A program made the position numbers and the translations under genes. The notes under the pieces are model-generated. The model was given only the letters and a program-made list of their open reading frames with translations, was not told the origin of the DNA and searched no databases. Below are positions 10,252 to 10,465 of a DNA stretch of 64,000 bases, piece after piece. How positions within the stretch are numbered: position 1 is the stretch's first letter; every line of letters starts with the position of its first letter. Source of the DNA: Escherichia coli (lineage in GTDB: Bacteria > Pseudomonadota > Gammaproteobacteria > Enterobacterales > Enterobacteriaceae); assembly GCF_013122565.1 (NCBI RefSeq), contig NZ_CP053258.1; one strand, written 5' to 3'.

Positions 10252-10412
10252 ACGCTAATTCCTGTTTCTCTAGTATGCCATCCAGTATGCCCTTATTCTC
10301 ACACTTCACTAAGCATACATTAGATAATATCGGACAGAAAAAATTTGTAATGTATTGTTTATAATTAAATTATACAACGCCTCTGGATTAAGTCAGATTT
10401 ATTTCAGGCGGT

Positions 10413-10426
10413 CCCCCTCACCGCCA
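10413..10426 (+). other. Putative att core: 14 nt identical to the 3' end of tRNA-Ser(GGA) (ccccctcaccgcca); no intact tRNA present
   Basis: Matches remembered serW/serX 3' terminus; upstream sequence is not tRNA-like; 150 bp from integrase start. Confidence 0.4.
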
Positions 10427-10441
10427 TATTTAAATAAATAT

Positions 10442-10465
10442 CCTCCGGCATAGCCGGAGGTTTTT
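10442..10465 (+). terminator. Hairpin cctccggc-ata-gccggagg followed by TTTTT
   Basis: Read directly; position fits the native terminator downstream of a tRNA 3' end. Confidence 0.45.

What the first reader, a model, noticed from the sequence alone, without database searches (positions are those of the whole stretch)
10407..10465. Island junction: 14-nt tRNA-Ser 3'-end core followed by a terminator hairpin, without the tRNA body
ccccctcaccgcca matches the 3' end of tRNA-Ser(GGA) as I remember it and is followed 16 bp later by a stem-loop plus T-run, as expected for the native tRNA downstream flank. The sequence upstream is not tRNA. This is the signature of the distal (partial-repeat) junction of a tRNA-integrated island, yet the integrase gene lies at this end, which is atypical.
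Basis: partly seen in the sequence, partly recalled or inferred. Interest (0 to 1): 0.45.

Follow-up and report, generated by a model that had tools for sequence, protein, structure and literature searches.

The report
Known serX island junction plus IS200C
The 14-base tRNA-Ser fragment is the already-published end repeat of a common E. coli genomic island inserted at the serX tRNA gene, and the hairpin next to it belongs to an IS200C insertion sequence that landed there later, not to the tRNA's own terminator, so the finding is real but ordinary.

Summary
The window is the E. coli serX–ycdU locus. CCCCCTCACCGCCA (10413-10426, +) is a true copy of the last 14 nt of tRNA-Ser(GGA) with no tRNA body. 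It is the cryptic ser'X end (attR) of an SRL-PAI / OI-48 / SpLE1-family island. It is the exact reverse complement of the published 14-bp direct repeat TGGCGGTGAGGGGG (PMC3064760).

In three complete relatives the intact serX lies 32-59 kb away beside ghrA, and the integrase sits at the ycdU end. "Integrase at the partial-repeat end" is therefore correct, but it is the documented norm for this family. The integrase plus junction occurs at near-full length in 1,259 of 5,426 complete E. coli genomes.

The hairpin reading is wrong. The stem-loop and T-run (10442-10465) lie inside a 711-bp IS200C (10433-11143) inserted 6-8 bp after CCA. Identical hairpins sit in IS200C copies at unrelated loci. 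The native serX terminator is displaced to 11150-11178.

Two extras:
- The window's integrase has a private 11-bp deletion that removes the catalytic tyrosine, so the island probably cannot excise itself.
- The junction shows a GGCGGT-7 bp-ACCGCC core and paired GTATGCC motifs on both attP arms.

Verdict: already known; low interest.

The parts
9048..10251 (-). P4-family tyrosine integrase gene of the island, here a pseudogene. The open frame 9160-10251 gives 363 aa; relatives have 400-404 aa.
   Evidence: NCBIfam NF007246 integrase domain, E = 2.4e-37. It is 97% and 93% aa identical to the intact integrases of JNE23 and PapRG-04-4 up to residue ~352, then diverges and stops before ...LAHTLKNKVEAAYHRTDLL....
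9196..9203 (-). Site of an 11-bp deletion (GGGATTTTCGC) between GGGATTT direct repeats. It shifts the integrase frame before the C-terminal stretch that carries the presumed catalytic His and Tyr.
   Evidence: DNA alignment with JNE23 and PapRG-04-4 and position computed. All 29 full-length relatives listed span 1283-1284 bp against the 1273-bp query, so they lack the deletion.
10269..10291 (+). Tandem TCTAGTATGCC / TCCAGTATGCC repeats on the integrase-side (P) arm. They are candidate arm-type integrase binding sites (inferred).
   Evidence: D1. GTATGCC pairs 12 bp apart also occur 57 and 69 nt after CCA on the other arm in three relatives. There are 4 hits in the 425-bp reconstructed attP against about 0.05 expected.
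10407..10425 (+). Core-type site: perfect 6-bp inverted repeat GGCGGT / ACCGCC around the 7-bp spacer CCCCCTC. The spacer is the inferred strand-exchange region.
   Evidence: (I1) and the sequence. The function is inferred from the general architecture of tyrosine-recombinase core sites.
10413..10426 (+). 14-bp att direct repeat, the cryptic ser'X: the last 14 nt of tRNA-Ser(GGA) including CCA.
   Evidence: It is the reverse complement of the published OI-43/OI-48/SRL-PAI repeat TGGCGGTGAGGGGG.
10427..10432 (+). First 6 nt (up to 8, because of an AA ambiguity) of the native serX 3' flank, TATTTA(AA), before the IS.
   Evidence: Alignment with K-12, JNE23 and O157 empty sites.
10433..11143 (-). 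IS200C insertion sequence, 711 bp. The boundaries are ambiguous by up to 2 nt. There is no target duplication.
   Evidence: Absent at this exact point in JNE23, O157 and K-12. Other IS200C copies begin matching at window 10432/10433 and end at about 11145-11156. The ends are identical in the copies at yjbR/uvrA and caiF/carB.
10442..10465 (+).
   Evidence: The identical sequence is present in IS200C copies at two unrelated loci and absent from IS-free junctions.
10542..11000 (-). IS200C tnpA, a Y1 (HuH) transposase of 152 aa.
   Evidence: NF033573 transpos_IS200, 147 bits against a cut-off of 55. Annotated as IS200C tnpA in PapRG-04-4 and other genomes.
11010..11133 (-). IS200 5'-UTR RNA element (STnc490), including the left-end hairpin CCCCCAG-TCTAG-CTGGGGG at 11113-11131.
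   Evidence: Rfam RF01405, 140.8 bits against a gathering score of 56. Fold.
11144..11178 (+). Resumption of the native serX 3' flank: AAGAAGAG, then the true serX terminator (stem 11150-11171, T8 at 11171-11178).
   Evidence: Identical to the sequence that directly follows CCA-TATTTAAA in K-12, JNE23 and O157. Fold -10.9 kcal/mol, z = -4.6. Terminator scan.
11330..12316 (-). ycdU, the chromosomal gene flanking the serX attachment site.
   Evidence: Annotation of the homologous region in K-12 and four other genomes.

Best explanation
Window 10413-10426 is the attR (cryptic ser'X) junction of a genomic island of the SRL-PAI / OI-43 / OI-48 / SpLE1 family, integrated at the 3' end of serX.

Integration. 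A P4-family tyrosine integrase recombined the circular island's attP with the last 14 bp of serX. attP carries CCCCCTCACCGCCA. This left an intact serX next to ghrA at the far end, which lies outside this window. There serX is followed by an island-supplied terminator. The displaced 14-bp copy and the original serX downstream flank ended up here, next to ycdU.

Integrase position. In this family int sits on the attP arm that becomes joined to the tRNA's downstream flank, and it reads away from the core. It therefore always ends up at the partial-repeat end.

Likely recombination sites (inferred). Strand exchange probably occurs in the 7-bp CCCCCTC between the inverted GGCGGT and ACCGCC. Paired GTATGCC motifs on both arms are probable arm-type sites.

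Later events.
1. A 711-bp IS200C inserted 6-8 bp after CCA, without target duplication. It split the ser'X remnant from the native serX terminator.
2. An 11-bp slippage deletion frameshifted int upstream of the catalytic Tyr. The island in this strain is most likely immobilised unless a paralogous integrase acts in trans.

Shown: the identities, the boundaries and the layout in relatives. Inferred: the crossover position, the arm sites and the loss of mobility.
For: Locus and repeat:
- Locus identity and synteny with K-12 serX-ycdU.
- The 14-mer equals the serX 3' end and the attL/attR direct repeat in JNE23, A30, PapRG-04-4 and O157.
- The published 14-bp DR TGGCGGTGAGGGGG is its reverse complement. 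The same paper describes a P4-family int at the ycdU/ser'X end and measures excision. The SRL PAI has 14-bp DRs, and int is required for its excision.

Layout in relatives:
- The intact serX is next to ghrA at the far end in 3 of 3 complete relatives, with int at the ycdU end.
- int plus junction is present at near-full length (at least 80% of the query) in 1,259 of 5,426 genomes; all but four of the 1,270 matching records are 90-95% identical.

IS200C:
- Empty-site comparison.
- tnpA family hit and STnc490.
- Identical ends and hairpin at unrelated loci.

Other details:
- int frameshift.
- Core inverted repeat and GTATGCC enrichment.
- Island-supplied terminator at attL.
Against: - The other end of the island in this particular genome is not in the window. 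The intact serX and the second repeat are inferred from relatives that are 96-99% identical.
- The integrase is only about 91% nt identical to the O157 gene. That gene is the one reported as 99% identical to the SRL-PAI int. Specificity is inferred from the conserved junction and was not tested.
- The crossover position and arm sites are unproven.
- The 11-bp deletion could in principle be an assembly error. It is, however, flanked by a 7-bp repeat and is not a homopolymer indel.
Confidence: 0.93

Rival explanations
1. One reading: the stem-loop and T-run at 10442-10465 are the native rho-independent terminator of serX, retained with the partial tRNA repeat.
For: It has the form of an intrinsic terminator and sits 15 nt after CCA.
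Against: K-12, JNE23 and O157 have a different hairpin after CCA-TATTTAAA: GAGC(C/T)CGTACGAAAGTACGGGC followed by T8. In the window that hairpin is at 11150-11178. The 10442-10460 hairpin is found base-for-base in IS200C copies at yjbR/uvrA and caiF/carB.
Confidence: 0.02
2. The ser'X remnant derives from one of the RtT-type tandem units downstream of serX, not from serX itself. Each unit repeats the tRNA 3' end and terminator. The island would then have integrated into, or later recombined with, a secondary att copy.
For: K-12 has 3.4 copies of a 181-bp unit after serX. Each ends in AATCCCCCCCTCACCGCCA-TATTTAAAGAAGAG plus the terminator. Two units score as Rfam RtT. Unit number at attR varies: 0 in the window, O157 and PapRG-04-4, and 1 in JNE23.
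Against: In 3 of 3 relatives attL is serX itself, followed directly by island DNA with no RtT unit on that side. Loss of units by homologous recombination explains the variation equally well.
Confidence: 0.07
3. The tRNA body was deleted (IS- or island-mediated deletion of serX) and the 14-mer is merely what is left, rather than a product of site-specific integration.
For: There is no tRNA in 64 kb. An IS lies next to the remnant, and IS-mediated deletions are documented in this island family.
Against: The left breakpoint (…GGCGGT|CCCCC…) is nucleotide-identical to the attR of O157 and of other genomes that do have an intact serX at the far end. The IS lies on the other side of the remnant and inserted cleanly without loss of flank.
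Confidence: 0.03
4. Chance 14-nt match with no biological meaning.
For: Short G+C-rich words do occur by chance. With 2 mismatches allowed, 0.36 hits per window are expected.
Against: The match is exact, at the syntenic serX position, flanked by the native serX 3' sequence, and identical to the published att repeat.
Confidence: 0.005

Closest known systems
OI-48 / OI-43 (tellurite-resistance and adherence islands) of E. coli O157:H7 EDL933, and SpLE1 of strain Sakai
   Same: Same attachment site (serX, flanked by ycdU and ghrA/ycdW). Same 14-bp direct repeat. Same position and orientation of the P4-family int next to cryptic ser'X. The int-to-junction segment is 91.4% nt identical over its full length. 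The int-proximal backbone genes match (a 605-616-aa hypothetical protein, an HTH protein, YfjI/DUF3987).
   Different: Cargo differs. The closest relatives of the window (A30, JNE23) carry a ~32-kb island with a fimbrial operon and CP4-type genes, with no ter/ure/iha annotated. In the window int is frameshifted and an IS200C sits beside the repeat.
[quoted passage not shown]
   Same: The 14-bp DRs are reported as identical. It integrates at serX, with serW as an alternative site. Precise excision depends on int.
   Different: The link rests on the report that the OI-43/48 int is 99% identical to the SRL int and on the window's 91% identity to the O157 int. Cargo also differs (resistance and fec genes).
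P4 / CP4-57-type tRNA- or tmRNA-integrated islands (own knowledge)
   Same: P4-family tyrosine integrase with an arm-binding N-terminus. Integration into the 3' end of an RNA gene, with a short identity block that regenerates the gene. CP4-type accessory genes (yfjI, yfjJ, GTPase, antirestriction, radC-like JAB, cbtA/cbeA).
   Different: In P4 and CP4-57 int lies next to the intact tRNA/tmRNA. Here the att core is inverted relative to int, so int ends up at the partial-repeat end. The identity block is short (14 bp) and excludes the T-loop.
IS200 of Salmonella and IS200C of E. coli (IS200/IS605 family)
   Same: Y1 transposase (NF033573). About 0.7 kb. Subterminal hairpins at both ends. No inverted terminal repeats and no target duplication. 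STnc490 5'-UTR RNA.
   Different: None detected. It is an ordinary copy, 98-99% identical to copies elsewhere in E. coli.
RtT repeats downstream of tyrT (Rfam RF00391)
   Same: K-12 serX is followed by tandem 181-bp units that repeat the tRNA 3' end and score as RtT.
   Different: The window retains none of these units. Only the terminal terminator and unique flank remain after the IS.

Membership tests
SRL-PAI / OI-43 / OI-48 / SpLE1-type serX/serW island junction | Located at the serX attachment site, between ghrA(ycdW)/serX and ycdU | tested here: met
   The ycdU flank and the native serX 3' flank are present in the window. The ghrA/serX side was seen only in relatives.
SRL-PAI / OI-43 / OI-48 / SpLE1-type serX/serW island junction | Flanked by perfect 14-bp direct repeats TGGCGGTGAGGGGG, the last 14 bp of serX | tested here: inconclusive
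   The attR copy is present and exact. The second copy lies outside the window. It was verified in JNE23, A30 and PapRG-04-4, but not in the source genome.
SRL-PAI / OI-43 / OI-48 / SpLE1-type serX/serW island junction | P4-family tyrosine integrase adjacent to cryptic ser'X and homologous to OI-48 Z1559 | tested here: met
   Integrase domain hit. 91.4% nt identity over the full int-plus-junction segment to O157:H7 genomes. Same position next to ycdU. The gene is frameshifted here.
SRL-PAI / OI-43 / OI-48 / SpLE1-type serX/serW island junction | Int-dependent precise excision and integration | not testable with these tools
   Known for the SRL PAI and OI-43/48 from the literature. The truncated int predicts loss of autonomous excision in this strain.
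IS200/IS605 family, IS200C | Y1 (HuH) TnpA transposase | tested here: met
   NF033573, 147.2 bits against a cut-off of 55.
IS200/IS605 family, IS200C | Subterminal hairpins at both ends; no terminal inverted repeats; no target-site duplication | tested here: met
   Hairpins at 10442-10460 and 11113-11131. The empty-site comparison shows clean insertion with only a 2-nt AA ambiguity.
IS200/IS605 family, IS200C | Multicopy, with the same ends in unrelated genomic contexts | tested here: met
   14,230 places in 4,832 genomes matched a 931-bp query that also holds flanking DNA. The IS-only hits among the 30 sampled rows, and the copies at yjbR/uvrA and caiF/carB, have identical ends.
Native intrinsic terminator of serX | The hairpin at 10442-10460 is the sequence that follows serX in island-free or IS-free genomes | tested here: not met
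   K-12, JNE23 and O157 carry GAGC(C/T)CGTACGAAAGTACGGGC followed by T8 instead. In the window that terminator is at 11150-11178.
tRNA gene (serX) | Cloverleaf detectable by ARAGORN or the Rfam tRNA model | tested here: not met
   0 tRNAs in the window and no RF00005 hit. K-12 serX scores 53.8 bits as a control.

The most novel reading that the evidence does not exclude
The RtT-type tandem units downstream of serX each carry a complete copy of the 14-bp att core with its native right flank. They might act as secondary or decoy attachment sites for this integrase family. Alternatively they might be products of repeated integration and excision. The strain-to-strain variation in unit number at attR (0, 1 or about 3) would then record island traffic rather than simple repeat loss. 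A lesser possibility is that IS200C preferentially targets the base of terminator hairpins. All three copies examined have their left end abutting AA and a host hairpin. That would make tRNA-distal att sites recurrent IS200C landing pads that lock islands in place.
Probability: 0.08. Interest if true: 0.4.

Novelty: already known. Interest (0 to 1): 0.1.

Why it matters
It matters little beyond correct annotation. The junction, its 14-bp repeat, the integrase position and the excision behaviour of this island family have been published since 2001-2011, and the arrangement is present in about a quarter of complete E. coli genomes.

Three practical points remain:
1. A hairpin and T-run next to a tRNA remnant should not be assumed to be the tRNA's terminator. 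Here it is an IS200C end.
2. Island finders that expect the integrase next to the intact tRNA would mis-orient this family.
3. This copy looks immobilised by a frameshifted integrase, which would stabilise its cargo in this strain.

Tried and rejected
- ARAGORN and Rfam over the whole window found no tRNA. The intact serX copy could therefore not be sought in the window.
- A search for a second copy of the 14-mer with up to 2 mismatches found none. The island's other end is more than 10.4 kb to the left of the junction, outside the window.
- I considered scanning genome contigs for the unique ser'X/IS200C junction to find the source genome. I did not run it. Returned loci are limited to short flanks, so they could not reach an island end about 22 kb or more away. 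Three complete relatives already answer the structural question.
- Turner et al. 2004 (PMC353151), on the SRL PAI attP, is not held in the library. The attP requirements are therefore not cited from it.
- PADLOC and NCBIfam scans of int-proximal island ORFs, including the conserved 616-aa protein at 5711-7561, returned nothing.
- I rejected the idea that the hairpin is a bidirectional terminator shared by int and serX. It is absent from IS-free junctions.
- I rejected the IS boundary at 10432. It would require the loss of one native A, while options 10433-10435 all fit the empty site.

Full report
**1. What is at the coordinates**

The + strand reads ...TTATTTCAGGCGGT CCCCCTCACCGCCA TATTTAAATAAATAT CCTCCGGC-ATA-GCCGGAGG TTTTTCAAATG....
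- The 14-mer occupies 10413-10426.
- The stem-loop occupies 10442-10460.
- The T-run occupies 10461-10465.
- The gap between the 14-mer and the stem is 15 nt.

The 14-mer occurs once in the window, even allowing 2 mismatches. ARAGORN finds no tRNA in the 64 kb, and Rfam finds no tRNA either. The stem-loop is strong (RNA fold -15.5 kcal/mol, z = -4.9) and is called terminator-like on both strands. The described objects therefore exist, slightly inside the stated start.

**2. Where we are**

Megablast places the region at the E. coli serX-ycdU locus. In K-12 the order is ymdE-ycdU-(735 bp)-serX-ghrA, with the 3' end of serX pointing toward ycdU. The window is in the opposite orientation. From left to right it holds:
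- the integrase, 9160-10251 (-);
- the 14-mer;
- an IS200/IS605 transposase, 10542-11000 (-);
- ycdU, 11330-12316 (-);
- an ACP S-malonyltransferase gene.

**3. The hairpin is not the tRNA flank**

I aligned the window with K-12 (no island), JNE23 and O157 (island, no IS) and PapRG-04-4 (island plus IS). The native sequence after CCA is TATTTAAAGAAGAGC(C/T)CGTACGAAAGTACGGGCTTTTTTTT. In the window, 711 bp are intercalated between TATTTA(AA) and (AA)GAAGAG.

The insert is an IS200C:
- TnpA matches NF033573 at 147 bits against a cut-off of 55.
- Rfam STnc490, the IS200 5' UTR, lies at 11010-11133 (-).
- Thousands of copies exist in E. coli. Their alignments to the window begin at 10432/10433 and end at about 11145-11156.
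- The copies at yjbR/uvrA and at caiF/carB carry exactly AATAAATATCCTCCGGCATAGCCGGAGGTTTTTCAAATGCGCC at one end. At the other end they carry ...CCCCCAG(C/T)CTAGCTGGGGGTTTTCTGTGCAC. Their flanks are unrelated.

It lies 10-28 nt inside the element. The genuine serX terminator is at 11150-11178. No target duplication is seen. A 2-nt AA ambiguity leaves the IS as 10433-11143, give or take 2 nt.

**4. The island and its ends**

In JNE23 (98.6% identical around the junction, no IS) the intact tRNA-Ser lies beside ghrA, about 32 kb from the junction. The island end next to it carries DUF4942, DUF957, cbtA/cbeA, a JAB/RadC-like gene, antirestriction and DUF932 genes. The integrase is at the ycdU end. 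A30 (~32 kb) and PapRG-04-4 (~59 kb) show the same layout. The window's first 10.4 kb are collinear with the A30/JNE23 island: YfjJ, IS remnants, YfjI, an HTH protein, a 616-aa hypothetical protein, then int.

The junctions compare as follows:

| Site | Sequence |
|---|---|
| attL | ...TTCGAATCC CCCCCTCACCGCCA GATTA(C/T)AAGCGCAT... |
| attR | ...CAGGCGGT CCCCCTCACCGCCA TATTTAAA... |

The perfect direct repeat is exactly the 14-mer. After attL the island supplies a replacement terminator for serX, AAGCGCAT...ATGCGCTT followed by T-rich sequence (-11.3 kcal/mol, z = -3.6).

**5. This is published**

Bielaszewska et al. 2011 (PMC3064760) state that OI-43 and OI-48 of EDL933 are flanked by perfect 14-bp DRs, TGGCGGTGAGGGGG. 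According to the paper:
- the repeats encompass the last 14 bp of serW and serX;
- each island has a P4-family int about 99% identical to the SRL int;
- int (Z1559) is at the island end next to ycdU and cryptic ser'X, and the intact serX lies next to ycdW;
- complete excision by recombination between the DRs was measured.

The review PMC7545054 records three further points. The SRL PAI has 14-bp DRs, its excision from serX requires int, and PAI-serX islands exist in CFT073, UTI89, RS218, IHE3034 and UM146.

In the collection used here, the int-plus-junction segment (window 9160-10432) is present in 1,259 of 5,426 complete genomes with at least 80% of the query covered. All but four of the 1,270 matching records are 90-95% identical. 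They include O157:H7, O111:H8 and ATCC 25922. In O157 strain Z1812 int is again adjacent to ycdU.

**6. Why the integrase is at the 'wrong' end**

In P4 and CP4-57-type elements (own knowledge) the att core lies upstream of int in the orientation that puts int beside the regenerated tRNA. Here the core also lies about 160 bp upstream of int, but inverted. Int is thus on the arm that becomes joined to the tRNA's old downstream flank. This is a fixed property of attP in this family, not an anomaly of this locus.

The junction has two features typical of tyrosine-recombinase sites:
- A perfect 6-bp inverted repeat, GGCGGT/ACCGCC, brackets the 7-bp CCCCCTC. attL keeps the tRNA's seven Cs and attR keeps five. 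Exchange therefore cannot lie to the left of the 14-bp identity block, and it probably lies in this spacer.
- GTATGCC occurs as same-strand pairs 12 bp apart on both arms. The positions are window 10273 and 10285 on one arm, and 57 and 69 nt after CCA in all three relatives on the other. That is 4 hits in a 425-bp reconstructed attP against about 0.05 expected.

Reading the first as a core-type site and the second as arm-type sites is inference.

**7. State of this copy**

The window's int lacks 11 bp (GGGATTTTCGC) between GGGATTT repeats, at 9203|9202. The reading frame shifts after ...CSEQGF and terminates at 9160. The ...LAHTLKNKVEAAYHRTDLL... segment is lost. From knowledge of the family, that segment contains the active-site His and Tyr.

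All 29 full-length relatives listed are 10-11 bp longer than the query over this span, so the lesion appears private to this strain. Together with the IS200C only 6-8 bp from the core, this suggests a fixed island. That conclusion is inferred. A paralogous int elsewhere in the genome, for example at serW, could act in trans.

**8. Rivals**

- The native-terminator reading is refuted.
- A chance match is excluded by synteny and flank identity.
- A deletion origin is unlikely. The left breakpoint is identical to the attR of genomes that retain serX.
- Integration into a downstream RtT unit cannot be excluded for this genome. K-12 has 3.4 units of 181 bp, each repeating the att core, and two of them are Rfam RtT hits. 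No relative shows this arrangement, however.

**9. Verdict**

The feature is an already-known att junction with an ordinary IS200C beside it. Interest is low.

Noticed in passing
window 9196-9203 (within int pseudogene 9048-10251): An 11-bp deletion between GGGATTT direct repeats frameshifts the island integrase before the catalytic Tyr motif. None of the 29 full-length relatives displayed carries it.
   Followed up: yes
window 11138-11178; L006 ~1005-1050; L007 ~1005-1050: All three IS200C copies examined have their tnpA-proximal end (…GTGCAC) abutting AA and then a host stem-loop that looks like a terminator. The hosts are the serX terminator, the yjbR/uvrA intergenic hairpin and the caiF/carB intergenic hairpin. 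This may reflect a target preference for the base of hairpins.
   Followed up: partly
L001 3962-4584 (K-12, downstream of serX); L002 21483-21619: K-12 has 3.4 tandem 181-bp RtT-type units after serX. Each repeats the last ~19 nt of the tRNA (including the full 14-bp att core) and the terminator. Unit number differs between strains: about 3 in K-12, 1 in JNE23, and 0 in the window, O157 and PapRG-04-4.
   Followed up: partly
L004 10872-10921 (-), L008 ~17611-17660, L009 ~12517-12566: At the intact-serX end the island supplies its own hairpin and T-run directly after CCA. This replaces the native serX terminator, which is displaced to the ycdU side.
   Followed up: yes
window 10252-11340 versus L003 and L002/L008: The relationships are mosaic. 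The island side is closest to A30/JNE23 (int 97% aa, 98.8% nt). The IS200C insertion at the identical nucleotide is shared only with PapRG-04-4, whose int is 93% aa identical and whose island is ~59 kb with different cargo. The cause is either recombination across the junction or independent IS200C insertion at a hot spot.
   Followed up: partly
window 5711-7561 (+): A 616-aa protein lies next to the integrase and is conserved in the same position in JNE23, A30, PapRG-04-4 and O157. It has no NCBIfam or PADLOC match, and its function is unknown.
   Followed up: partly
window ~12313 to ~33000 (-), by collinearity with L003 23252-42598: To the right of ycdU lies a long same-strand cluster. In the relative PapRG-04-4 it is annotated as malonyltransferase, ketosynthases, ACP, FabZ-like dehydratase, SDR, AcpS, a LolA-like protein and an ABC transporter, followed by a two-partner-secretion hemagglutinin pair. 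K-12 keeps only the ymdE pseudogene and ycdU next to an IS3. From memory this resembles the E. coli aryl-polyene gene cluster; that was not tested here.
   Followed up: no
window 52593-52786 (+): There is an Rfam Ysr251 (Yersinia sRNA 251, antisense type) match at 188.5 bits. It is antisense to the 3' end of the 354-aa ORF at 52588-53652 (-), which is phoH by synteny with relatives, just after pgaD.
   Followed up: no
window 10369-10396 (-): A sigma-70-like promoter (CTGACT-16-TATAAT, 10/12) lies on the int strand between the att core and the int start. The int promoter would therefore sit within the attP P arm, close to the core.
   Followed up: no
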